Below, piece after piece: positions 33,247 to 47,705 of a DNA stretch of 53,180 nt. The stretch's first letter is position 1. Each line of letters begins with the position of its first letter. The position numbers were made by a program, and so were the translations under genes. The stretch is from a virus (taxonomy: Duplodnaviria > Caudoviricetes), in the IMG/VR virus record IMGVR_UViG_3300024255_000034, positions 1 through 53,180 of that record; one strand, written 5' to 3'. The notes under the pieces were generated by a model. It saw only the letters and a list, made by a program, of their open reading frames with translations, was not told the origin of the DNA and did not search any database.

Positions 33247-34485
33247 ATGTCTGATGAAATTTATGTAAATATAGGAACTTCGTTCCAACAACCCTACCAA
33301 GGACAAGGACTTGCACAAGGTCGTACACCTGTTATAGCACAATATATTGCAAGAAAACCTGCAAATGCACAAACCCCTTTTACATATCAAAATAGACAAC
33401 CTGCAAGTGCAAGACAGCCTTCATCTGCTCAAACACCTTATATTGCAAATAGACAAACCCCTTCCATAGTTCAGGCAACTGCAAATTATCCATATATTGC
33501 ATCTGCACAACAGTCATATCCTTATATTGCAAATGCACAAACTACTACTCAAAATACAGGAAGAACACCTGTAATATATCAAGCAACAGGAAGAACACCA
33601 TTCACATATGCAAGACAAGGACAAACACCATATAGTGCAACTGGAAGATTACCTTCTACATATGAAACACAAGGTCAAACACCTTACAGTTTTCAACAGA
33701 GTTATCAACAAACATATGAAACACAAGGAACACAACCTTATACATTTAATGATACTGGACGACAACCTACGATATATCAAGCACAAGGAACACAACCATA
33801 TAGTTATCAACAGAATTATCAGACCCCAAGTATATACACTGCACAAGTAAGTACCAATAGTCAAGCAACATATCAACACCCGACTACATATCAACATCAG
33901 GCGCAGATAACTTATAGACACCCTACTAGTTCTCAGAGTGTATTTCAGACTCCAGTAATAGCACAACAACCTTATCAACATCCTTATACAGCTCAAACTC
34001 CTGCAAGTAAAGTTGGAAGACAACCTACAACATACACTTATCCCGACCCTGCAATTTGGGGCCCGTATCCAGTAACAGGTGGTTTATTATCTAGTTATGC
34101 TTACTATTATGAAGGATTTAGGTCTACAAACCCAGTTGCGCCAACACAATATGGTGATGGTTTTGGTTCAAGTCCTTGGCCTAATCTGCCAAGTGTTTAC
34201 ACACAAAAACAATATTGGTTGAATAGACCTACTAATTCTACTTTATCAGGAACACTAAATGTTGGAAACTTTTCACCAACAATAACACTTGGTAGTCAAT
34301 TTAATTATCTTCAAATTATTAAAAATGGAACCACTACAAATATACCTTATGCAACCTTTACACCAAATGGTGGGCCTATGGCACCACCATCTTATATGTG
34401 GAGTGGAAGTATGCCTATTATCACACAACAATTTCCAACTCATATAATTTTTAACGGTAATAGCGTCACATTAGCATTATTTTAA
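33247..34485 (+). CDS. Repeat fibre protein A (Pro/Tyr/Gln repeats plus 153 aa head domain)
   Basis: 15 aa N-terminus, 244 aa of repeats, C-terminal domain shared with 42180. Confidence 0.8.
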   Translation: MSDEIYVNIGTSFQQPYQGQGLAQGRTPVIAQYIARKPANAQTPFTYQNRQPASARQPSSAQTPYIANRQTPSIVQATANYPYIASAQQSYPYIANAQTTTQNTGRTPVIYQATGRTPFTYARQGQTPYSATGRLPSTYETQGQTPYSFQQSYQQTYETQGTQPYTFNDTGRQPTIYQAQGTQPYSYQQNYQTPSIYTAQVSTNSQATYQHPTTYQHQAQITYRHPTSSQSVFQTPVIAQQPYQHPYTAQTPASKVGRQPTTYTYPDPAIWGPYPVTGGLLSSYAYYYEGFRSTNPVAPTQYGDGFGSSPWPNLPSVYTQKQYWLNRPTNSTLSGTLNVGNFSPTITLGSQFNYLQIIKNGTTTNIPYATFTPNGGPMAPPSYMWSGSMPIITQQFPTHIIFNGNSVTLALF

Positions 34486-34490
34486 TGGAG
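34031..34490 (+). repeat. Direct repeat copy 1 (head domain); copy 2 at 43141-43600
   Basis: Hand alignment: 36 mismatches in 460 nt, no gaps. Confidence 0.95.
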
Positions 34491-34498
34491 GATAAGAA

Positions 34499-35407
34499 AT
34501 GGCAATAGGAAATACTCAACAACCGTATACTTTTCAATATCAGACTCCATATACGTTGCAGGTAACATCTCAACAACCTTATAGTTTTCAACAACCTACA
34601 AGACAACCAGTAAATGTTCAGAATATAAGACAACAGCCATATTCTTTTACTGCAAATAGACAAAACACTGCACAACAACCTGCAATTATTCAAGTATCAT
34701 ATCAAGCGAATAAACAAACAAGTGGAACAAGACCTATTGCAACAGCAACAAGAACTTATCCTTATATTGCAAATAAACAGAATCCATTTCCATTTATTAA
34801 TCAAGGTCAGGTAGCATATCCATTTATAGCAAGAAGACCTGCAACTACACCAGTTGCACAAGCACAAGCAAATTATCCATATATTGCAAATGCACAAACA
34901 CCGTATCCGTATATTGCACAAGCACCGTATCCTTACATTGCAAATGCACAACAACCATATCCATATGAGGCAAATGCACAACAACCATACCCGTACATAT
35001 CTCAAACTCCGAGTACATATGCAAGACAGGGTAGGACACCATTTACATATAACCGTCAGGCATCATACAGTTTTGAAACACCTGCAAGAACTCCAAGTAC
35101 ATATGTGAATCAACAACCTAGTATTTACCAACACCCTGTAATCTATAGAAATCCGTATATTGCTAATGCAAGACAACCTTCAACATATCAACATGCATAT
35201 CAATCATCTTATAGTTTACAACAAAATTATACTTTCCAACAACCATACACAACAACTAGAACAGTCGGCCCGATTGCAAAAGTGAAAGGTGTGTACAGAA
35301 ATAATGCTGGAACTGTAGAGAAGGTTGACGAGATTTATGTCAATGATAGTGGAACTTTGGAGAAAATACACCAATCAGTTCCAACTGCTCAATTCAATAA
35401 GGGTTAA
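34499..35407 (+). CDS. Repeat fibre protein B (mirror partner of A)
   Basis: MAIGNTQQP start, 240 aa of repeats, C-terminal GVYRNNAG and EIYVNDSG motifs. Confidence 0.8.
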   Translation: MAIGNTQQPYTFQYQTPYTLQVTSQQPYSFQQPTRQPVNVQNIRQQPYSFTANRQNTAQQPAIIQVSYQANKQTSGTRPIATATRTYPYIANKQNPFPFINQGQVAYPFIARRPATTPVAQAQANYPYIANAQTPYPYIAQAPYPYIANAQQPYPYEANAQQPYPYISQTPSTYARQGRTPFTYNRQASYSFETPARTPSTYVNQQPSIYQHPVIYRNPYIANARQPSTYQHAYQSSYSLQQNYTFQQPYTTTRTVGPIAKVKGVYRNNAGTVEKVDEIYVNDSGTLEKIHQSVPTAQFNKG

Positions 35408-35412
35408 AAAGG

Positions 35413-35420
35413 TATAAATA
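35413..35420 (+). promoter_or_regulatory. Late promoter
   Basis: TATAAATA 6 nt before the ATG at 35427. Confidence 0.75.
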
Positions 35421-35426
35421 GTATAT

Positions 35427-35759
35427 ATGGCTATACTTGCAAACATATTTATCGACCAAGGTGCTGACTTTTCAATCACTGTAGATGTCACGGACTCTTC
35501 AGGTGATGTATTAAACATGTCAGGATATTCTGCAGCTGCACAAATAAGAAAAACATATTCTTCTGCAACTGCAAGTGGAACATTCACATGTACCGTGCAA
35601 GAGGCGAGTGGTCAAGTGACCATGGCATTAACAGACACGCAAACAACAGCATTAGAAGCTGGTAGATATGTTTATGATATGACAGTCACCAGTGGTGGAG
35701 GAAACAAAACTAGAGTTGTTGAAGGTCAGGCAATTGTGACGCCAGGAGTGACAAGATGA
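35427..35759 (+). CDS. Conserved virion adaptor-like protein (Ig-like beta sandwich)
   Basis: NIFIDQGADF, AQIRK, GRYVYD and RVVEGQAIVTPGVT motifs. Confidence 0.7.
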   Translation: MAILANIFIDQGADFSITVDVTDSSGDVLNMSGYSAAAQIRKTYSSATASGTFTCTVQEASGQVTMALTDTQTTALEAGRYVYDMTVTSGGGNKTRVVEGQAIVTPGVTR

Positions 35760-39951: not shown

Positions 39952-40182
39952 ATGGCAACACAAAACAAATTTGTAGTAGAATACGGAGTCAGTGTTGGAA
40001 CCACTGAAGTAATCAATTCATCAGGTAAGATAGTTGCAGGTGCAATATCAGATTTAACTACTGATAATCTTGCAGAAGGTTCCGCTAAGTACTACGCAAA
40101 CTCATTAGTAGATACGCATCTTTCAGATGCATCTACATCAAAAACTCTGGCAAATGTTCAGATTGATGGAGGAACATTATAA
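39952..40182 (+). CDS. Small structural protein ending IDGGTL
   Basis: N-terminus paralogous to 40182 (F.V..G.SVG..EVI.S.G); TCTAAATA at 39902. Confidence 0.7.
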   Translation: MATQNKFVVEYGVSVGTTEVINSSGKIVAGAISDLTTDNLAEGSAKYYANSLVDTHLSDASTSKTLANVQIDGGTL

Positions 40183-42137
40183 TGGCTGGAGAAAAGAATT
40201 TTAATATTAAAAATGGTCTATCCGTTGGTGGTGTAGAAGTTATAACTAGTGCTGGTGCTTTAACTGGTAGTGCAATAACAGAATCGATTGACGATAGAGT
40301 TAATAGTCTATTAACAGCAGGAACAGGTATTTCATTATCTTATGATGACGGTGCAAATACACTTACAATTAACGGACAACAAGGTGATATCACTGGTGTT
40401 AACGCTGGTGCAGGTTTAACTGGTACTGCAACTTCAGGTGATGCAACACTAAACATTGGTGCTGGTACAGGTATCACTGTAAATGCAGATGATATTGCAG
40501 TTAATATGTCTGCATTCGATACAGACGACCTTTCAGAAGGTTCGACAAACGAATATTTTACAGATGCAAGAGCAAGAGCATCAATTAGTGTAAGTGGAGA
40601 TTTGTCCTATAACTCTACAACTGGTGTATTATCATTCACTAATGATGCAGGTGATATAGAAAGTGTCACTGCTGGAGACGGTTTATCAGGTGGTGGAACT
40701 ACAGGTGCATTATCACTTGCAGTAAATGTTGACGATAGTTCAATCGAAACAAGTTCAGATGCATTACAAGTAAAAGCACTTGGTATTACAGATGCTATGT
40801 TGGCAGGTTCTATTTCAAACGGAAAACTTGCTAATAGTTCAATTTCAATCAACTCAAATGCAACTGCCTTAGGTGGTGCAGTCACACTGGATACTGGTGA
40901 TATATCAGAAAATGGAAATTTATATCATACTTCAGAAAGAGTTGACGATAGAGTAAATGCATTAATTACTGCTGGTACTAATATAACAACAACATATGAT
41001 GATACAGCTGGTACACTTACAATTAACTCTTCAGGTAAAACACAAGAAGAAATAGAAGACATTGTAAATGGATTAGTAGTTGGTGGAACAAACATCACTT
41101 CAACTTATGATGATACTGCAGGAACACTAACACTTGCTGGATTATCAGATGCAGATGTCAGAGGATTAGTATCTGCTGGTGGAGATTTATCATACAACAG
41201 TTCAACTGGTGCATTCTCATTTACAGAAAGAACAGATGCAGAAGTAAGAGGACTAATATCGGTAACAGATAACGCTGGAGACGGCTCACTTGCATACAAT
41301 AGTTCAACTGGTGCAATCACATATTCAGGTATCAGTGATTCACAAGTAAGAGGTAAATTATCAGTAACAGATTCAGGTGGAGATGGTTCACTTTCGTATA
41401 ATTCAGGTACTGGTGTAATAACATATACAGGCCCAAGTGCTTCAGAAGTTCGTGCTCATTTAAGTGCAGGTACTGGTGTTGGATTCAGTGGTGGTGCAAT
41501 TAGTATTGGACAGGCAGTTGGAACTTCTGATAACGTATCTTTTGGAGACCTTACACTTTCAGGCGACTTAACAGTTAACGGCACAACAACTACTGTTAAC
41601 ACTGCAACCCTTAATGTCTCAGATAACATTGTTGTTGTTAATAATGATGTGACTGGAACACCTAGTGAAGACGCTGGTCTTGAAGTAGAAAGAGGAACTT
41701 CTTCTAATGTGTCTCTACTATGGGACGAATCAGAAGACGAATGGACATTCGGTTCTTACAATGTTAAGGCATCTTCTTTTGAAGGTTCATTGACAGGAAA
41801 CGCTTCTACTGCATCTAGTGCTGCTCAATTAACGAGTGCAAGAACAATCAGTTTGGGTGGAGACCTTTCAGGTTCTGCTTCATTTAATGGTACTTCAGAC
41901 ATTACAATTACAGCTGCAGTTGCAGATGATTCACATAATCACACAATTGCAAATGTTGATGGATTACAGACTGCCTTAAACACTAAATATGAGAGTGGTT
42001 CTAATGCAACACTAGGAACAATAACAACTAGTAATACATCGAACTCAGGTGGATATGTGAGAAACATATATCAATCAACTTCATCTCCTACAGGTAGTGA
42101 TGGTGCAGTTGGTGATTTATGGGTTCTATACTCTTAA
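40182..42137 (+). CDS. Tail fibre-like protein 2
   Basis: Internal repeats (AGTNITTTYDDTAGTLT; GDGSLSYNS); ends SSPTG...GDLWVLYS. Confidence 0.75.
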   Translation: MAGEKNFNIKNGLSVGGVEVITSAGALTGSAITESIDDRVNSLLTAGTGISLSYDDGANTLTINGQQGDITGVNAGAGLTGTATSGDATLNIGAGTGITVNADDIAVNMSAFDTDDLSEGSTNEYFTDARARASISVSGDLSYNSTTGVLSFTNDAGDIESVTAGDGLSGGGTTGALSLAVNVDDSSIETSSDALQVKALGITDAMLAGSISNGKLANSSISINSNATALGGAVTLDTGDISENGNLYHTSERVDDRVNALITAGTNITTTYDDTAGTLTINSSGKTQEEIEDIVNGLVVGGTNITSTYDDTAGTLTLAGLSDADVRGLVSAGGDLSYNSSTGAFSFTERTDAEVRGLISVTDNAGDGSLAYNSSTGAITYSGISDSQVRGKLSVTDSGGDGSLSYNSGTGVITYTGPSASEVRAHLSAGTGVGFSGGAISIGQAVGTSDNVSFGDLTLSGDLTVNGTTTTVNTATLNVSDNIVVVNNDVTGTPSEDAGLEVERGTSSNVSLLWDESEDEWTFGSYNVKASSFEGSLTGNASTASSAAQLTSARTISLGGDLSGSASFNGTSDITITAAVADDSHNHTIANVDGLQTALNTKYESGSNATLGTITTSNTSNSGGYVRNIYQSTSSPTGSDGAVGDLWVLYS

Positions 42138-42179: not shown

Positions 42180-43595
42180 ATGGCAACAGGGTCACAAAAG
42201 GTAAAAACCCCTTCGGGTTGGAATTCAACTCAGGGTGGTTGGGTAAAAACAGGTTCTACAACATGGAAAGCTGTTGACCAAATATATGTAAAAACACCTA
42301 CAGGGTGGAATGCTGCTTCAGGACAACAATCTGTTCAACAACCATACCCATACATTGCAAATAGTCAGACTCCATATATTGCTAATAGACAAAATCCTTA
42401 TCCGTATATCGCAAATGCACAGACCCCATATATCGCTAATGCACAAAATCCTTATCCGTATATTGCTAATGCACAAAGTCCTTATATTGCTGATGCTCAA
42501 CAACCATATCCGTATATAGCAAACAGTCAGACTCCATATATTGCTAATGCTAGACAACCTAGTACATATCAACATAGGTCGCCGTTTACATATCAAAATC
42601 CTTCAAATAAACAGTCACCTTATATTGCATCTGCACAACAGGCATATCCTTATATTGCATCTGCACAAGAACCTAATATTAGGTCAGCACAACAACCATA
42701 TCCGTATATTGCTAATGCTAGACAACCTAATACGTATAACCATAGGTCTCCATTTACATACAGAAACCCTGTAAATGGTCAAACACCTTATATTGCGAAT
42801 GCTAGAAGTCCAAGAGGATACAGAAATCCTGTAAATGGTCAAACACCTTATATTGCAAATGCTAGAAGTCCAAGAGGATACAGAAATCCTGTAAATGCAC
42901 AACAACCTAACATAAGGAATAGTCAAGCACCATTTACGTATAACGCTAGATATCCTGCAAATGCTCAGAGTCCTAGTAATAAACAAAGTCCTTTCACTTA
43001 TAACGCTAGATACCCTGCAAATGCTCAGTCACCTAGTAGTAGACAGAGTCCATTTACATACAATGCTAGATACCCTGCGAATGCTCAGAGTCCTAGTAGT
43101 AGTCAGAGTCCATTTACATATAGTTTCAGAAGTCCGACCACATATACTTATCCCGACCCTGCAGTTTGGGGCCCGTATCCAGTAACAGGTGGTTTATTAT
43201 CTAGTTATGCTTACTATTATGACGGATTTAGAAGTGCAAATCCAGTTGCGCCAACACAATATGGTGGTAGTTTTGGTTCAAGTCCTTGGCCTAATCTGCC
43301 AAGTCCTTACACACAAAAACAATATTGGTTGAATAGACCTAGTAGTTCTGTGTTATCAGGAACACTAAATCTTGGAAACTTTGCGCCAGGAATAACACTT
43401 GGTAGTCAATTTAGTTATCTTCAAATTATTAAAAGTGGTGTGACTACAAATATACCTTATGCAACCTTTACACCAAATGGTGGGCCTATGGCACCACCAT
43501 CTACTATGTGGAGTGGAAGTATGCCTATTGTCACATCGCAATTTCCAACTCATATAATTTTTAACGGTCAGAGCGTCACATTAGCATTATTTTAA
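42180..43595 (+). CDS. Repeat fibre protein C (Pro/Tyr/Gln repeats plus 153 aa head domain)
   Basis: 54 aa N-terminus with three VKT...W motifs, 264 aa in 35 units, head domain shared with 33247. Confidence 0.85.
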   Translation: MATGSQKVKTPSGWNSTQGGWVKTGSTTWKAVDQIYVKTPTGWNAASGQQSVQQPYPYIANSQTPYIANRQNPYPYIANAQTPYIANAQNPYPYIANAQSPYIADAQQPYPYIANSQTPYIANARQPSTYQHRSPFTYQNPSNKQSPYIASAQQAYPYIASAQEPNIRSAQQPYPYIANARQPNTYNHRSPFTYRNPVNGQTPYIANARSPRGYRNPVNGQTPYIANARSPRGYRNPVNAQQPNIRNSQAPFTYNARYPANAQSPSNKQSPFTYNARYPANAQSPSSRQSPFTYNARYPANAQSPSSSQSPFTYSFRSPTTYTYPDPAVWGPYPVTGGLLSSYAYYYDGFRSANPVAPTQYGGSFGSSPWPNLPSPYTQKQYWLNRPSSSVLSGTLNLGNFAPGITLGSQFSYLQIIKSGVTTNIPYATFTPNGGPMAPPSTMWSGSMPIVTSQFPTHIIFNGQSVTLALF

Positions 43596-43600
43596 TGGAG
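43141..43600 (+). repeat. Direct repeat copy 2 (head domain)
   Basis: About 92% identical to 34031-34490. Confidence 0.95.
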
Positions 43601-43608
43601 AATAATAA

Positions 43609-43896
43609 ATGTCAATAATAACACAAACAATAGATGGACAAGATTTTTATGTAAGAAGTCCACTTCCAACAGTCACATGTAATGGTGTGGATTATAGTGT
43701 ATCATGTACATTCCCACTTACGAATTACACTGTAGGTGGAAGTGTCGATACTGCAAATGCAATAGAACATTTTGAACTGTTGGAAACAGCAAGAATTAAT
43801 GAAGCAATAGTAGTTTCATACGGACTACCAGTAATAGAAGATGGCGTAGAAGTTTGGACTATAACAGACCAATACCCATACTTAACAGCGGTATAA
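43609..43896 (+). CDS. Hypothetical protein between C and D
   Basis: 95 aa ORF with GGAG SD. Confidence 0.7.
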   Translation: MSIITQTIDGQDFYVRSPLPTVTCNGVDYSVSCTFPLTNYTVGGSVDTANAIEHFELLETARINEAIVVSYGLPVIEDGVEVWTITDQYPYLTAV

Positions 43897-43911
43897 TAGG
43901 AAAATAAACAA

Positions 43912-44790
43912 ATGGCAATAGGAAATACCCAACAACCAAATATAGGAAATGCTAGACAACCTAATATTTATAGGAATCCCTTTACCTATAGGGTTCCGTA
44001 TATTGCCAATGCAAGACAACCTGTAATCTATAGGAATCCTTTTACATATAGGGTACCTTATATTGCTAATGCTAGACAACCTGTAATCTATAGGAATCCT
44101 TTTACATATAGAGTTCCGTATATTGCTAATGCTAGACAACCTAGTACGTATAACCATAGGTCTCCATTTACATATAGAAACCCTGTTGGATATCAGTTAC
44201 CGTTTACTTATAATAATAGACAACCATTTACATACAGAAATCCTGTTGGATATCAGTTACCGTTTACTTATAATAATAGACAACCATTTACATATAGAAA
44301 CCCTGTATCGGCACAAGAACCTAATATACGTAATAGTCAAACACCATTCACGTATGCAAGACAAGGTCAAACACCTTTCACATATCAACATAGAAGTCCG
44401 TTTACATATGCAAGACAGGGTAGAACACCATTTACATATCAAAATAGACAACCTGTAATTTATAGAAATCCTGTAAATGCACAAGAACCTAATATACGTA
44501 ACAGACAAACACCTTTCACATATCAGAACAGACAGCCTGGAACTTATCAGAGAACTGGTCAAACTCCATTCACTTATCAGAATAGACAACCTGTAACATA
44601 TGCAAGACAAGGTCAAACACCTACTACATATCAAAACAGACAACCTAGTACATATGCTAGACAAGGTCAGACACCTACTACATATCAAAACAGACAACCT
44701 GGCACATATGCTAGACAAGGTAGAACACCTGTTATCCGTTGGGACGGTGCATTACAACAAAACTGGCCAGGAACACCTATATCCTCTTAA
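43912..44790 (+). CDS. Repeat fibre protein D (mirror partner of C)
   Basis: MAIGNTQQP start, 264 aa in 35 units, 20 aa tail. Confidence 0.85.
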   Translation: MAIGNTQQPNIGNARQPNIYRNPFTYRVPYIANARQPVIYRNPFTYRVPYIANARQPVIYRNPFTYRVPYIANARQPSTYNHRSPFTYRNPVGYQLPFTYNNRQPFTYRNPVGYQLPFTYNNRQPFTYRNPVSAQEPNIRNSQTPFTYARQGQTPFTYQHRSPFTYARQGRTPFTYQNRQPVIYRNPVNAQEPNIRNRQTPFTYQNRQPGTYQRTGQTPFTYQNRQPVTYARQGQTPTTYQNRQPSTYARQGQTPTTYQNRQPGTYARQGRTPVIRWDGALQQNWPGTPISS

Positions 44791-44823: not shown

Positions 44824-46395
44824 ATGGACAAATTAAAAACTTTAGAGCAAACAAAAGAACTTTTAACATTCCCCGAGTCATTCAAAGATTTAGACCATAG
44901 GTCTAGAAGAGATATAGACCAATGGCATTTAGGTGCAATAAACGACTTATCTAACATAGACGAAGACTCAGAATTTTTTAAGATTTTGGAATACATGTTT
45001 GAAAACATGCCTCCACTTAAATTATGTAAATGGTCTGATTTAGAACAACTTAGAAGAGACGGTAAACTAATTGGTTGGCAAGGTCTCAGATTTCAAGCAA
45101 ACTCATATCATAGATTCTTACCCGAAATTTATACATCAGGTTCCATTAATGAACATGGCGCTCCTTCTACAAAATTTGCAGTATCAGAACCTATAAATGA
45201 TAAAGAAGTTTATATTGGAGACTATGCAGGAGAAGAACTCGAAGAAGGGGATTTTGAAGCAGAAGACTTTCCAATTGCACTAAACTCAATGTATTATCAT
45301 AGTGCAAAAGCACATTGGTTAACTCAAAGTATACAAGAAGAGGGATTGTGGGCACCTATACAGGGTCTTACACAAATGTGTGGAGATAGAATACAATTAA
45401 TGATTCACCCAGGCTCTGTTCGTTCAGGTTGTTTTGAAGAAATGGAAGACCCAACTCATGAATTATTATTATGGGATTCACATGATATTATACCATCAAA
45501 TCCATTAACAGTCAAGCAATGTTTAGAGTACTGGCAAGATAAAGTTTGTAATGGGGTTAGGAAACCAAAGTACAAAGGTCTTTCTGCAATATGGACAATG
45601 GGAACTATAGAGTTCCAAGCAGACTTTAGTAATGTAGATTTTAGAAAGTATGTTTGGGAACATAGTGAAAAGGTCACTAAACTTGCAAAAGGAAAACCTC
45701 TCAATATTTACATTGGGTATGATAGTAGGCACAATGGATTAGAAAATGTATGTAAGGAATCTATACTAAAGTCTATAAAACAATCTATTGGGGGTGGAAG
45801 ACTTGTAAACTATAATAAGTTTATACCCGAAATTAAATTTTTAGATGTGTCTAAGATACCCGAATACAAAAGACCATATGAGAATCAATCCACATGGTTT
45901 ACATACAGTAGATTCTTAATCCCTTACTTAGAAAACTATGAGGGGTTCAGTTTGTTTATAGATGATGATTTCATTTTTAGTAAATCATTACTACCTATGT
46001 TTTACTATTTAAATACAGATGATGCAATTGCATGTATTAAGTATCCTCAAATAAAACATGATGAAACTAAATTTGACGGAGAAGTAAACATAGATTATCC
46101 ATGTAAGTTATGGTCTTCAATGATGTTCTTTAATAATGGACATGAAGACTGTAAAAAGTTAACACCCGAAGTTGTGAATACATGGACTGGAGCTCAATTA
46201 CACCAATTTGAATGGACTGATAAAATTAGTCCTATACCTGAAAAATATATATTTGTTGAAGGGTATGATAACCCTGATGTAAAGTGGGACTATAGCGGAA
46301 TCCATTATACTAGGGGAGGCCCGTGGATAAATGACATGGATTCTAGTCACATAAATAACTTAGAAGATTATAATAAAGTAAAAAATCTATTGTAA
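44824..46395 (+). CDS. Fusion of a ParB/Srx-like domain and a GT-A glycosyltransferase
   Basis: WLTQSIQEEGLWAP...IHPGSVR, then IYIGYDSR, STWFTYSRFLIPYL, FIDDDF, WSSMMFFN and IHYTRGGPW. Confidence 0.75.
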   Translation: MDKLKTLEQTKELLTFPESFKDLDHRSRRDIDQWHLGAINDLSNIDEDSEFFKILEYMFENMPPLKLCKWSDLEQLRRDGKLIGWQGLRFQANSYHRFLPEIYTSGSINEHGAPSTKFAVSEPINDKEVYIGDYAGEELEEGDFEAEDFPIALNSMYYHSAKAHWLTQSIQEEGLWAPIQGLTQMCGDRIQLMIHPGSVRSGCFEEMEDPTHELLLWDSHDIIPSNPLTVKQCLEYWQDKVCNGVRKPKYKGLSAIWTMGTIEFQADFSNVDFRKYVWEHSEKVTKLAKGKPLNIYIGYDSRHNGLENVCKESILKSIKQSIGGGRLVNYNKFIPEIKFLDVSKIPEYKRPYENQSTWFTYSRFLIPYLENYEGFSLFIDDDFIFSKSLLPMFYYLNTDDAIACIKYPQIKHDETKFDGEVNIDYPCKLWSSMMFFNNGHEDCKKLTPEVVNTWTGAQLHQFEWTDKISPIPEKYIFVEGYDNPDVKWDYSGIHYTRGGPWINDMDSSHINNLEDYNKVKNLL

Positions 46396-46418
46396 TTTAA
46401 ACATAATTGAGGTATAAT
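46390..46418 (+). promoter_or_regulatory. Sigma70-like promoter, leaderless geometry for the 46425 gene
   Basis: TTGTAA, 17 nt spacer, TATAAT; ATG 6 nt downstream. Confidence 0.55.
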
Positions 46419-46424
46419 AACAGT

Positions 46425-46982
46425 ATGAACGCACTAATTTACACGGAAGACCAAAAGTTAATAATCAGAAAACCAAATGGTTTACAATACGAGTTTGCAA
46501 ATACAGACCAACCTGAACTTGGATTTGATTTTGATGTATTGGTATATGACGATATTGAAGTCATAATAGAAAAATGGGAAGATGGAAAGTGTTTTGACGA
46601 CCAAGTACAAAGGCCTGTCACTGGGGGTGAGAAAGAAATCATTGAAAACTATATTTCAAACTCTGAACCTCCTGTAGGAATAACATTAAATAATCAATAT
46701 GCACAAGACTTAATGAATCAACTTAAAGGAAACGTAGATGATTTTATGGGGAACTATGGTTTTGAAGACTTAACAGAAGTCACTTTTGCAGGTAGAGAGG
46801 GCTCTAATCACCCATATAGGTCTAATGCAAGAAGAGTAATGGAATACACTGATTCTCAGTATGTCATATATGACCAGTTAGTAAATGAAATATTTGCAAC
46901 TAGAGAAGACCATTTAAAAGATATACAAGAATATATAAACCAACTTCCTATAGCAAGTTTATTGCCTGACCACGAAAGATAA
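46425..46982 (+). CDS. Hypothetical acidic protein (ATG start at 46425)
   Basis: MNALIYTEDQK...; open frame. Confidence 0.7.
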   Translation: MNALIYTEDQKLIIRKPNGLQYEFANTDQPELGFDFDVLVYDDIEVIIEKWEDGKCFDDQVQRPVTGGEKEIIENYISNSEPPVGITLNNQYAQDLMNQLKGNVDDFMGNYGFEDLTEVTFAGREGSNHPYRSNARRVMEYTDSQYVIYDQLVNEIFATREDHLKDIQEYINQLPIASLLPDHER

Positions 46983-46985
46983 GTC

Positions 46986-47705
46986 ATGTATGATGACATA
47001 AAAGTCGTCCACATAGACGAACCTTTTAAAATAAAAGATTTACCACTTAAAGATATCTATGTCTTAGATAACTATCTAGCAACTGAACTACATCATCATT
47101 TTGATGATTACATAGTTGCTAATAACCTTTGGTCTAAAACTAATCAAGTAGGTAGTGGGAGTCCAACGGGTCTACCTCATCATAGTTTTTGGGGTGCAAC
47201 TTATTATAGAGAGGATATGAAATTGGAAAAAAATATGGATAAACTCCATACAGTATTTCCTTACTATTTAAACAGAAGACTACAAACAGAATTTGGATTT
47301 AAGTGGGAAAGATTTCAATACATGGGACTAAACTCACAAACACAAGGCCTACAAGGGACAACACACGCAGATTGTCAAGAGGAAGATGAATGGAATCTCT
47401 CATTCCTTTATTATACCAATAAGTTTTGGAATAAAGAGTGGGGTGGAACATTGAGGTTGTATAATGAAATGCAACAGGGATTAGACGGTAGACAAGAACA
47501 TATAGACAATCACCAAATTGCAGAAGTTGAGTTTAAACCAAACAGATTAATAATTTTTGACGGAAGGATACCACATGGTGCAGATGCACCCACTCCTTCA
47601 GCACGATATATAGATAGAAGGTCTCTTGTTTTAAGAGGGGACGAAGTAAGATTAGTAAAGGAAGAAGAATTTTTTCATGCCAACGATAGAATTTCACACA
47701 TATAA
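46986..47705 (+). CDS. 2OG-Fe(II) oxygenase, prolyl-hydroxylase-like
   Basis: HAD (HxD), WNKEWGG, FKPNRLIIFDGRIPH and a distal R. Confidence 0.85.
   Translation: MYDDIKVVHIDEPFKIKDLPLKDIYVLDNYLATELHHHFDDYIVANNLWSKTNQVGSGSPTGLPHHSFWGATYYREDMKLEKNMDKLHTVFPYYLNRRLQTEFGFKWERFQYMGLNSQTQGLQGTTHADCQEEDEWNLSFLYYTNKFWNKEWGGTLRLYNEMQQGLDGRQEHIDNHQIAEVEFKPNRLIIFDGRIPHGADAPTPSARYIDRRSLVLRGDEVRLVKEEEFFHANDRISHI

What the first reader, a model, noticed from the sequence alone, without database searches (positions are those of the whole stretch)
42342..44727. A symmetric unit-pairing code between the mirror proteins
Seen: in the reversed alignment, unit types pair by consistent rules whichever chain carries them. 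PNIRxxQx faces PxTYxHRS (4 of 4, twice in each direction). xYPYIAxxxx faces PxTYxRxGxT (6 of 6). PYIAxxxx faces PxTYxNRQ or PFTYNARY. PV(N/S)(A/G)Qx faces PFTY(R/Q)N, PANAQS faces PFTYRV, PSxxQS faces PxIYRN, and PRGYRN faces PVGYQL. In general a unit with Tyr at position 4 faces a small-residue unit. Inference: this is a knob-into-hole recognition alphabet analogous to base pairing, which would set both partner specificity and register and might be programmable.
Basis: partly seen in the sequence, partly recalled or inferred. Interest (0 to 1): 0.9.

Follow-up and report, generated by a model that had tools for sequence, protein, structure and literature searches.

The report
Two phage proteins with mirrored complementary repeats
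Two neighbouring genes of an uncultured marine T4-like phage encode proline-punctuated repeat proteins whose unit order, unit lengths and unit types are exact mirror-image complements of each other, which most likely means that the two chains zip together head-to-tail as a long two-chain fibre using a small pairing alphabet not described before.

Summary
Protein A (42180..43595) and protein B (43912..44790) consist of Pro-initiated units of 6, 8 or 10 residues. The unit-length order of A is the exact reverse of B (35 of 35; forward 5 of 35). There is no DNA inverted repeat behind it.

In 45 distinct homologous pairs from viral contigs and 2 from MAG contigs the mirror recurs (45 of 45 beat all 200 shuffles). 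Repeat spans co-vary (r = 0.990, 206-544 residues).

Unit types pair almost deterministically and symmetrically between chains. All Pro-Pro spacings but one are even (4045 vs 1). All aromatics lie on one face, where covariation and size compensation concentrate.

Best reading: an antiparallel, in-register two-chain beta ribbon with one Tyr "knob" unit facing one small-residue "hole" unit. Pairing and structure are inferred. No named homologue and no paper were found.

The parts
42180..43595 (+). Gene A, 471 aa: conserved N-terminal domain, 36 Pro-initiated units, variable C-terminal domain
   Evidence: ORF list. No Pfam or PHROG family above cut-off. Homologue present upstream of, or next to, B in all 45 distinct pairs.
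42180..42341 (+). A residues 1-54: Trp-rich N-terminal domain, proposed proximal anchor and clasp for the C-terminal tail of B
   Evidence: tblastn hit in 42 of 42 loci, median identity 87%. The mirror offset places the end of B at A residue about 35-36 in nearly all pairs.
42342..43151 (+). A repeat region, residues 55-324: units of 10, 8 or 6 residues
   Evidence: TRF periods of 54 and 60 nt.
43152..43595 (+). A C-terminal domain, about 147 aa: variable distal tip
   Evidence: Found in only 5 of 42 loci. Elsewhere it is replaced by other globular domains, by short poly-Gly tails, or by poly-Gly-Cys-Hint domains. It is shared with paralogue X of the same window.
43609..43896 (+). Small ORF C (95 aa) between A and B; role unknown and not a constant part
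   Evidence: Present between the two genes in 7 of 42 loci only. No family.
43912..44790 (+). Gene B, 292 aa: 8-residue N-terminal cap, 35 units, 20-residue C-terminal tail
   Evidence: 242 relatives in viral contigs. 320 proteins with E <= 0.001 in the metagenome protein collection; none carries a name beyond 'hypothetical' or 'uncharacterized'.
43936..44727 (+). B repeat region, residues 9-272: mirror complement of A residues 55-318
   Evidence: 35 of 35 unit lengths. 35 of 38 Pro residues of B coincide with Pro of A at one offset.
44728..44790 (+). B C-terminal tail with the motif P..RWD...Q.WP (plus stop codon), proposed clasp onto the N-terminal domain of A
   Evidence: Motif present in 42 of 45 pairs.
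33247..34485 (+). Gene X, 412 aa: paralogue of A with degenerate repeats and the same C-terminal domain, lacking the N-terminal domain of A
   Evidence: 55% identity to A 107-471 over 405 columns. Found with B as query in the window's own record.
34499..35407 (+). Gene Y, 302 aa: paralogue of B with the same first nine residues and degenerate repeats; partial mirror partner of X
   Evidence: Mirror local score 55 against shuffles of 19 +/- 2, with one gapless block of 105 residues.
40182..42137 (+). Upstream fibre-like structural protein (651 aa); genomic context only
   Evidence: phrog_697 at 4.8e-28 and phrog_11011, long tail fibre distal subunit, at 1.6e-06. Upstream in 42 of 42 loci.
44824..46395 (+). 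Downstream 523-aa protein with a nucleotide-sugar-transferase-like C-terminal half; candidate modifier, linked by synteny only
   Evidence: phrog_28018 at 2.5e-40. Glyco_transf_8 scores 17 bits, below the cut-off of 24.3. tblastn hits are annotated as glycosyltransferases. Downstream in 42 of 42 loci.
46986..47705 (+). 2OG-Fe(II) oxygenase; candidate prolyl hydroxylase, linked by synteny only
   Evidence: PF13640 at 37.2 bits, above the cut-off of 27. Downstream in 41 of 42 loci.

Best explanation
A and B are the two chains of one hetero-oligomeric virion fibre. They lie antiparallel and in register along their whole repeat regions, about 264 residues here and 206-544 in relatives.

Proposed geometry (inferred). 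Each chain is an extended beta strand. Pro faces Pro at the start of every unit, on the face whose backbone NH and CO point away from the partner. All unit lengths are even, so the two-residue phase never slips. The even-numbered positions of both chains form one common face. That face carries all the aromatic residues. On it each unit pair places a Tyr (position 4 of a 'knob' unit) against Gly, Ala or Ser (position n-2 of a 'hole' unit).

Complementary unit pairs:
- xYPYIA with PxTYxRxGxT.
- PNIR with PxTYxHRS.
- PYIA with PxTYx(N/A/H)Rx.
- Pxx(small)Qx with PxxYxx.
- A special Tyr-Tyr 6-mer pair that has a small residue at position 3.

Proposed function (inferred). The aperiodic order of lengths and types works as a barcode that fixes partner, register and fibre length. 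The conserved N-terminal domain of A and the conserved C-terminal tail of B meet at one end, the proposed proximal anchor. The variable C-terminal domain of A and the N-terminus of B meet at the other end, the distal tip.

Shown: the mirror, its conservation, compensatory indels and swaps, even parity, and covariation and size compensation on one face. Inferred: physical contact, beta conformation, stoichiometry, and the place on the virion.
For: Window:
- 35 of 35 mirrored unit lengths.
- Gapless mirror score 305 at one offset, next best 12.

Family-wide mirror:
- In 45 of 45 distinct pairs the Pro positions of A and reversed B coincide beyond all 200 unit-order shuffles (z 6-18; median 91% of B's Pro).
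- 39 of 45 pairs align without a gap over 222-548 residues.
- There are 35 distinct architectures. Repeat spans measured separately in each chain correlate at r = 0.990.
- L001 has an extra 10+8 in both chains at mirrored places, giving 37 of 37.
- Two further pairs from MAG contigs show the same mirror. One has the gene order B then A with the same offset.

Unit types (n = 1668 unit pairs):
- xYPYIA 10-mers of A face PxTYxRxGxT in 207 of 209 cases; the reverse direction is 12 of 12.
- Tyr-type 8-mers never face Tyr-type 8-mers (0 in all 9 combinations).
- 10 of 12 heterotypic 8-mer combinations occur 6 or more times. 0 of 13 homotypic combinations occur more than once.
- Mutual information is 0.858 bits, against 0.115 +/- 0.010 for shuffles within locus and length.

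Geometry:
- Tyr-4 faces G/A/S in 84% of cases in the Pro-Pro register.
- Covariation appears only between even positions of the two chains.
- Aromatics per rung on the even face: 0 in 974 rungs, 1 in 1337, 2 in 85. 237 two-aromatic rungs are expected by shuffling. The odd face holds 3 rungs with an aromatic out of 1783.
- Variance of summed side-chain volume is 3040 against 4230 +/- 88 on the even face. The odd face shows no such effect.
- Pro-Pro spacings: 4045 even, 1 odd.

Partner choice:
- 49 distinct flank-conserved sites show a class switch in both chains.
- The cognate partner scores above the best partner of another length in 43 of 45 pairs.

Context: T4-like baseplate and fibre module.
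Against: - The AlphaFold monomer of A has mean pLDDT 36.
- 6 of 45 pairs need gaps: single unpaired units of 8 or 10 residues, or small shifts.
- L034 and L040 carry an identical A, but their B proteins differ by 44 residues. A strict one-to-one mirror is therefore not always kept, or that contig is misassembled.
- Homotypic exceptions exist. Among 8-mers 21 of 773 were classed hole-hole, and 10 of those are a misclassified Tyr type. Among 10-mers 14 of 290 are homotypic. Among 6-mers 5 of 605 are hole-hole.
- Unit pairs are related by tandem co-duplication and by common descent, so counts of cells overstate the number of independent events.
- The rung score matrix was trained on the same family.
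- All sequences are metagenomic. Expression and presence in virions are unknown.
Confidence: 0.68

Rival explanations
1. Only the Pro spacing (unit length) is under selection for pairing. The apparent type-to-type code is a passenger: facing units were co-duplicated and simply inherited their partners.
For: Much of both genes is tandem 54- and 60-nt blocks, and the repeated blocks face each other. Only 27 of the 35 unit pairs in the window are unique. Lengths alone already give one best offset.
Against: - The same pairs occur with either chain carrying either member, for example PNIR/PxTYxHRS 77 and 100, and PYIA/PFTYNARY 75 and 81.
- 10 of 12 heterotypic 8-mer combinations are used and 0 of 13 homotypic ones.
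- 49 flank-conserved sites have the class swapped in both chains.
- Residue-level covariation and volume compensation are confined to one face.
- The window-only shuffle still stands after collapsing duplicates, 5 of 20000.
Confidence: 0.13
2. The two proteins do not touch each other. Each binds in opposite orientation to a common third scaffold or ruler, or each forms its own homo-oligomer, and the mirror reflects that shared template.
For: No call shows direct A-B contact. Phage fibres of known structure are homotrimers (established knowledge, recalled). A-A and B-B mirror scores (138 and 127) are well above shuffles, though far below A-B at 320.
Against: - No candidate template with variable 6/8/10 units is present in the loci.
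- Unit patterns differ in 35 architectures while neighbouring genes stay conserved.
- Size compensation rung by rung between the two chains is most simply explained by direct contact.
Confidence: 0.1
3. The mirror is a nucleic-acid feature: an old inverted duplication read on the opposite strand, or a long-range DNA or RNA duplex between the two coding regions.
For: The two arrays have the same periods and the same spans, 225 nt at each outer end. The antisense frames are open across the repeats.
Against: - The reverse complement of A against B in register is 29.7% identical, which is background level. Forward comparisons average 27.8% with sd 4.3.
- The 7 inverted repeats found are short, and the longest is out of register (my arithmetic on the coordinates).
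- Pro faces Pro, which antisense reading of CCN codons cannot give (genetic code).
- L091 has the genes in the opposite order with the same protein-level mirror.
Confidence: 0.03

Closest known systems
Heterodimeric antiparallel coiled coils (knobs-into-holes packing, heptad code)
   Same: Two long chains recognise each other along their whole length. They use a short repeated pattern in which large side chains fit against small ones, and the pattern sets partner and register.
   Different: Here Pro occurs every 6-10 residues and the period is 2, which is incompatible with alpha helices. The units are 6/8/10 residues, not heptads. There is no sequence similarity.
Collagen heterotrimers and collagen-like phage fibre proteins
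   Same: Pro-rich, extended, register-sensitive multi-chain fibres. A 2OG-Fe(II) oxygenase of the prolyl-hydroxylase-like Pfam family lies nearby.
   Different: There is no Gly-X-Y triplet. Spacings are even, not multiples of three. The chains are mirrored (antiparallel), whereas collagen chains are parallel (established knowledge).
T4-type long tail fibre proteins and other phage fibres (triple beta-helix, beta-spiral)
   Same: Lies in the baseplate and tail-fibre module of a T4-like myovirus, next to fibre-like proteins. It has a conserved proximal end, a variable distal end and a variable length.
   Different: No match to any fibre family. Known fibres are homotrimers of parallel chains (recalled). 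No known fibre consists of two different chains with mirrored repeats.
Tandem beta-zipper and strand-addition interactions (for example bacterial adhesin peptides on fibronectin modules)
   Same: An extended chain pairs as an antiparallel beta strand with a partner over many residues.
   Different: In those systems a disordered peptide adds to pre-folded domains. Here both partners are repeat chains of equal length with a reciprocal alphabet. This comparison is recalled and not tested.
Hydroxyproline-rich glycoproteins (extensin-like) and the chlorovirus prolyl hydroxylase with its Pro-rich substrates
   Same: Pro- and Tyr-rich short repeats encoded beside a 2OG oxygenase and a glycosyltransferase-like gene.
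   Different: No SPPPP or PAPK motifs. Modification is not shown. Synteny is conserved for the whole neighbourhood, so the link is weak.

Membership tests
Known phage tail-fibre protein families (Pfam, PHROGs) | Significant match to a fibre family profile | tested here: not met
   A: only a sub-threshold Cementoin hit and no PHROG. B: only sub-threshold hits. PDB sequence searches gave nothing with E < 0.09.
Known phage tail-fibre protein families (Pfam, PHROGs) | Location in the tail-fibre and baseplate gene module | tested here: met
   gp6-, gp8- and tail-tube-like genes lie upstream. Fibre-like proteins are directly upstream, conserved in 42 of 42 loci.
Collagen-like triple helix | Gly at every third residue; period of 3 | tested here: not met
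   Unit lengths are 6, 8 and 10. Pro-Pro spacings are even in 4045 of 4046 cases. No Gly-X-Y runs appear in the translations.
Coiled coil | Heptad pattern in helix-compatible sequence | tested here: not met
   Pro occurs every 6-10 residues. The AlphaFold model shows strands only in the repeats, at low confidence.
Two-stranded antiparallel beta ribbon (structural class, not a family) | Two-residue alternation kept along both chains, with facing residues on the same face | tested here: met
   Even parity. All aromatics sit on even positions, and covariation is even-even only.
Two-stranded antiparallel beta ribbon (structural class, not a family) | Inter-chain backbone hydrogen bonding seen in a structure or a confident model | not testable with these tools
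The monomer model has pLDDT 36.
Prolyl-hydroxylated or glycosylated repeat proteins | Dedicated prolyl 4-hydroxylase and glycosyltransferase acting on the repeats | tested here: inconclusive
   2OG-FeII_Oxy_3 scores 37.2 bits, above cut-off. GT8 scores 17 bits, below cut-off. Both are syntenic in 41-42 of 42 loci, but so are all the neighbours. No chemistry can be tested here.
Hint / intein-like autoprocessing C-terminal domain | Hint domain after a Gly-Cys junction at the C-terminus of A | tested here: not met
   The window's A ends in a different 147-aa domain with no family. 11 of the 45 distinct pairs have the Gly-rich-Cys-Hint form of A. Vint scores 27.5 bits against a cut-off of 27 for L068.

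The most novel reading that the evidence does not exclude
A natural beta-strand pairing code. Two extended protein chains recognise each other antiparallel, unit by unit, through a small reciprocal alphabet of 6-, 8- and 10-residue Pro-initiated units, with Tyr knobs against Gly/Ala/Ser holes on one face. The order of units then encodes partner choice, register and fibre length. The alphabet would be transferable, so new cognate pairs could be written at will, giving a beta counterpart of designed coiled-coil or nucleic-acid pairing.
Probability: 0.4. Interest if true: 0.95.

Novelty: categorically new. Interest (0 to 1): 0.88.

Why it matters
If the two chains pair as the comparative data imply, this is a protein-protein recognition principle not known from nature: a long hetero-specific antiparallel beta zipper. 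Its specificity would be written in a modular alphabet and its length tuned by matched insertions in two genes.

It would give protein designers a ready-made, evolution-tested rule set for register-specific beta fibres, which are hard to design because beta strands tend to slip and aggregate.

It would also explain a widespread, unannotated gene pair of marine T4-like phages: 242 relatives in IMG/VR and 320 proteins in the metagenome collection. That pair probably builds a host-facing fibre of variable length and tip.

The family also offers a clean case of inter-protein co-evolution, with compensatory indels and unit swaps, that can be read directly from sequence.

Tried and rejected
Searches that found nothing:
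- DNA symmetry was rejected. The inverted-repeat search found 7 short pairs, none in register. The in-register reverse-complement identity is at background.
- Self-mirroring of single chains, and therefore a natural fused hairpin form, was not found among the fetched ORFs. All are at or below about 0.7 of Pro coincident, like non-cognate pairs. I did not run the 'longer' protein search for fused forms.
- Cultured phages gave no match. megablast and tblastn of the region, of A and of the N-terminal domain of A against the phage collection found nothing. BLAST's low-complexity filter weakens this for the repeats.
- Pelagibacter phages HTVC008M and Mosig and Methylophilales phage Melnitz-3 were searched whole with B and gave 0 of 3. 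These are the nearest cultured relatives by the gp6-like protein, at about 39-43% identity.
- Names: 7 clusters were looked up and none is named beyond 'uncharacterized'.
- Pfam, PHROGs, the PDB sequence search and the ESM Atlas gave nothing usable for A or B.
- AlphaFold on A with a 10-sequence alignment gave mean pLDDT 36, so no fold search was attempted.

Literature: four full-text searches listed nothing on these proteins. I saw only the search listings and abstract openings and read no paper. The motif-string search returned one unrelated paper. Supplements were not consulted.

The remarks on Pro at non-hydrogen-bonded beta positions, on aromatic-glycine pairs in sheets, on homotrimeric phage fibres and on about 3.3 Angstrom rise per residue are recalled knowledge and come from no call.

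None was retried.
Full report
WHAT IS THERE. The window is a 53180-base fragment of an uncultured virus (IMG/VR record, CheckV completeness 29%). Its gene content is that of a T4-like myovirus tail and baseplate module. PHROG matches include tail tube, baseplate tail tube cap, and gp6-like and gp8-like wedge subunits. The gp6-like protein is 39-43% identical to those of Methylophilales phage Melnitz and Pelagibacter phages HTVC008M and Mosig. The finding spans two + strand genes. A is 42180..43595 (471 aa) and B is 43912..44790 (292 aa), with a 95-aa ORF between them. The given coordinates 42342..44727 run exactly from the first repeat residue of A to the last repeat residue of B.

- Cutting both proteins at Pro gives 36 units in A and 35 in B, each of 6, 8 or 10 residues. 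The PYPYIA 10-mers are kept whole.
- Read backwards, B's unit lengths equal A's in 35 of 35 positions. Read forwards they agree in 5 of 35, and at other reverse offsets in at most 19.
- Within the window, 33 of 35 unit pairs join a unit with Tyr at position 4 to a unit with a small residue there. The remaining 2 are Tyr-Tyr 6-mers.
- Shuffling B's units among slots of equal length gives a mean of 23.0 heterotypic pairs and never reaches 33 in 20000 trials. With tandem duplicates collapsed the count is 26 of 27, reached in 5 of 20000.

NOT A NUCLEIC-ACID ARTEFACT. The reverse complement of A's repeat DNA, laid in register on B's, is 29.7% identical. Forward comparisons average 27.8% with sd 4.3. 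The inverted-repeat search found only 7 short pairs. The longest is 32 nt at 72%, and it joins residues that are not mirror partners (my arithmetic). Pro opposite Pro cannot come from reading CCN codons on the other strand. In one relative (L091) the gene order is B then A, yet the protein-level mirror and its offset are unchanged.

THE MIRROR IS A FAMILY TRAIT WITH COMPENSATORY CHANGES.
- A scan of viral contigs with B found 242 relatives, of which 79 loci were fetched. Together with the window they give 45 distinct A/B pairs. B ranges from 238 to 559 aa.
- In all 45 pairs the Pro positions of A coincide with those of reversed B at a single offset. The median is 91% of B's Pro and the minimum 69%. 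Every pair exceeds all 200 shuffles of B's unit order (z 6-18). Non-cognate partners of other lengths average 42-61%.
- 39 of 45 pairs align in mirror without any gap over 222-548 residues.
- There are 35 different unit-length architectures. Repeat spans measured separately in each chain correlate at r = 0.990.
- The closest case of a compensatory indel is L001. It has an extra 10+8 in A and an extra 8+10 in B at mirrored places, giving 37 of 37.
- Two pairs from a different collection (MAG contigs, probably binned phage DNA) behave the same way. 24 of 27 and 24 of 26 Pro coincide, and 23 of 23 and 21 of 23 unit pairs are heterotypic.
- The offset is almost always 35-36. The end of B therefore always meets the same part of A's N-terminal domain.

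THE PAIRING ALPHABET. Over 43 non-redundant loci and 1668 unit pairs:
- xYPYIA 10-mers in A face PxTYxRxGxT in 207 of 209 cases. In the opposite direction the count is 12 of 12.
- PxTYxHRS in A faces PNIR in 100 of 112 cases. PNIR in A faces PxTYxHRS in 77 of 98.
- PxTYxNRQ in A faces PYIA in 59 of 59 cases. PYIA in A faces PxTYxNRQ 252 times, PFTYNARY-type 75 times and PxTYxHRS 37 times. PFTYNARY-type in A faces PYIA in 81 of 93.
- Small 6-mers in A face Tyr 6-mers in 311 of 316 cases.
- No Tyr-type 8-mer ever faces a Tyr-type 8-mer (0 in all 9 combinations). PYIA or PNIR units face each other 3 times in all.
- Counting combinations rather than cells sidesteps amplification by duplication. 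10 of 12 heterotypic 8-mer combinations occur at least 6 times, and 0 of 13 homotypic ones occur more than once.
- Mutual information between facing types, within length classes, is 0.858 bits. Shuffles within locus and length give 0.115 +/- 0.010.
- Tyr-Tyr 6-mers (86 cases) are a type of their own. 80 of 86 have Gly, Ser or Ala at position 3, against 1 of 514 knob units in ordinary pairs.
- At flank-conserved, apparently orthologous sites, 49 distinct sites have the class swapped in both chains. The 52 one-sided changes listed are mostly switches between ordinary and Tyr-Tyr 6-mers, plus one regex artefact.

GEOMETRY READ FROM THE SEQUENCES.
- Pro-Pro spacings within the repeats are even 4045 times and odd once. 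A two-residue phase is therefore kept along hundreds of residues in both chains.
- With Pro opposite Pro, Tyr-4 faces Gly, Ala or Ser in 1495 of 1776 cases (84%) and Tyr in 180. Any other shift gives at most 56%.
- Excess mutual information between facing units appears only between even positions of one chain and even positions of the other. It falls on or next to the anti-diagonal predicted by that register. Examples are hole position 4 with knob position 6 in 8-mers (0.80 bits, the Arg/His against Ala/Asn contrast) and hole 2 with knob 6 in 6-mers (0.95 bits). Odd positions show none.
- All aromatic residues lie on the even face. 1337 rungs have one aromatic and 85 have two, where shuffling expects 237. 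On the odd face 3 of 1783 rungs hold an aromatic.
- The variance of summed side-chain volume per rung is 3040 against 4230 +/- 88 on the even face. It is not reduced on the odd face, 1725 against 1614 +/- 39.

These are the properties expected of a two-stranded antiparallel beta ribbon (established stereochemistry, recalled). In such a ribbon Pro occupies positions whose NH points away from the partner, and one face carries the specific contacts. Conformation and contact remain inferences.

REGISTER AND PARTNER CHOICE. I built a residue-pair log-odds table from the other loci. With it the window pair scores 305 at the true offset and 12 at the next best. The cognate B is the top-scoring partner for 36 of 45 A proteins. 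The rest rank second or third, behind near-identical relatives. The cognate beats the best partner of a different length in 43 of 45. The table comes from the same family, so this shows consistency and is not an independent test.

ENDS AND CONTEXT.
- A's N-terminal 54 residues are found in 42 of 42 loci at a median 87% identity. Its C-terminal domain is found in only 5 of 42.
- Across the 45 pairs, A ends in one of four ways. 17 have a short poly-Gly tail. 1 has extra unpaired repeats. 16 have one of several unrelated domains of about 150 aa. 11 have a Gly-rich-Cys junction followed by a Hint domain (Vint 27.5 bits against a cut-off of 27 for L068).
- B's C-terminal Trp motif is present in 42 of 45 pairs.
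- The conserved ends of both chains therefore meet at one end of the mirror, and the variable tip lies at the other. That is the usual layout of a host-range fibre.
- The neighbours are conserved: a fibre-like 651-aa protein upstream (42 of 42), a transferase-like 523-aa protein downstream (42 of 42), and a 2OG-Fe(II) oxygenase downstream (41 of 42). Hydroxylation or glycosylation of the repeats is a lead only.
- If fully extended at about 3.3 Angstrom per residue (recalled), the window's ribbon would be about 90 nm long and the family would span roughly 70-180 nm.

WHAT SPEAKS AGAINST, OR LIMITS, THE READING.
- No binding or structure was obtained. The complex predictor was closed and the monomer model is unusable (pLDDT 36).
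- Six of 45 pairs need a gap, usually one unpaired unit of 8 or 10 residues.
- L034 and L040 have identical A proteins, but their B proteins differ by 44 residues.
- A few homotypic pairs exist.
- Cells are not independent events.
- Everything is metagenomic.

KNOWN OR NEW. No Pfam, PHROG or PDB relative was found. No named homologue appears among 320 related proteins or the 7 clusters looked up. No copy was found in the phage collection or in three cultured relatives. Four literature searches found no paper; I saw listings only. In logic the system resembles heterodimeric coiled coils or register-specific collagen. It fails their defining features, since it has no heptads, no Gly-X-Y, a period of 2 and mirrored chains. 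I therefore rate it as categorically new in kind, with the mechanism inferred from strong comparative evidence only.

VERDICT. Confidence in antiparallel in-register pairing with knob/hole complementarity is 0.68. Interest is 0.88.

Noticed in passing
window 33247..35759: There is a second, paralogous gene pair in the same window. X (33247..34485) is 55% identical to A over 405 columns and has the same C-terminal domain, but a different N-terminus. Y (34499..35407) has the same first nine residues as B. Their repeats are degenerate, yet a 105-residue block still mirrors (score 55 against 19 +/- 2). The next ORF (35427..35759) is LtfC-like at 25.5 bits, just under the cut-off of 27.
   Followed up: partly
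L068:2547-4370, L079:3154-4929 and nine other loci (L033, L035, L049, L050, L067, L070, L071, L073, L075); also L090 and L091: In 11 of 45 pairs A ends in a poly-Gly run, a Cys and a Hint/intein-like domain. 17 others end in a short poly-Gly tail. In the mirror the C-terminus of A lies beside the N-terminus of B. Self-cleavage, or even ligation that closes the hairpin, is conceivable but untested.
   Followed up: partly
L091:4001-5796: The gene order is reversed here, B then A, on a 121-kb contig binned into a Sphingobacteriales MAG. The mirror and the offset of 35 are unchanged.
   Followed up: yes
L034 and L040: The A proteins are identical (416 aa), but the B proteins are 416 and 372 aa. 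This is either an uncompensated 44-residue difference in nature or a repeat misassembly.
   Followed up: partly
window 42291..42341 and 44728..44787: The reversed C-terminal tail of B reads much like the forward end of A's N-terminal domain (Pro-Thr-Gly, Trp-Asn, Gln-Gln). In the mirror Trp then faces Trp and Asn faces Asn. This may be a pseudo-symmetric clasp; no statistic was computed.
   Followed up: no
window 43609..43896: The 95-aa ORF between A and B is found in only 7 of 42 loci. Elsewhere A and B abut or overlap, with gaps from -15 to about 50 nt. It has no family.
   Followed up: partly
window 44824..47705: A transferase-like protein (phrog_28018; GT8 below cut-off) and a 2OG-FeII_Oxy_3 oxygenase follow the pair in 41-42 of 42 loci. 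PHROGs labels the oxygenase family 'DNA endonuclease V', which looks like a mislabel.
   Followed up: partly
window 42318..42986, 43882..44157 and 44257..44718, minus strand and other + frames: Long open frames overlap the repeats on the opposite strand and in shifted frames. They encode low-complexity Ile/Cys/Arg/Ser strings. I read them as by-products of the codon-poor repeat DNA and not as genes. The repeat regions also show negative GC skew.
   Followed up: no
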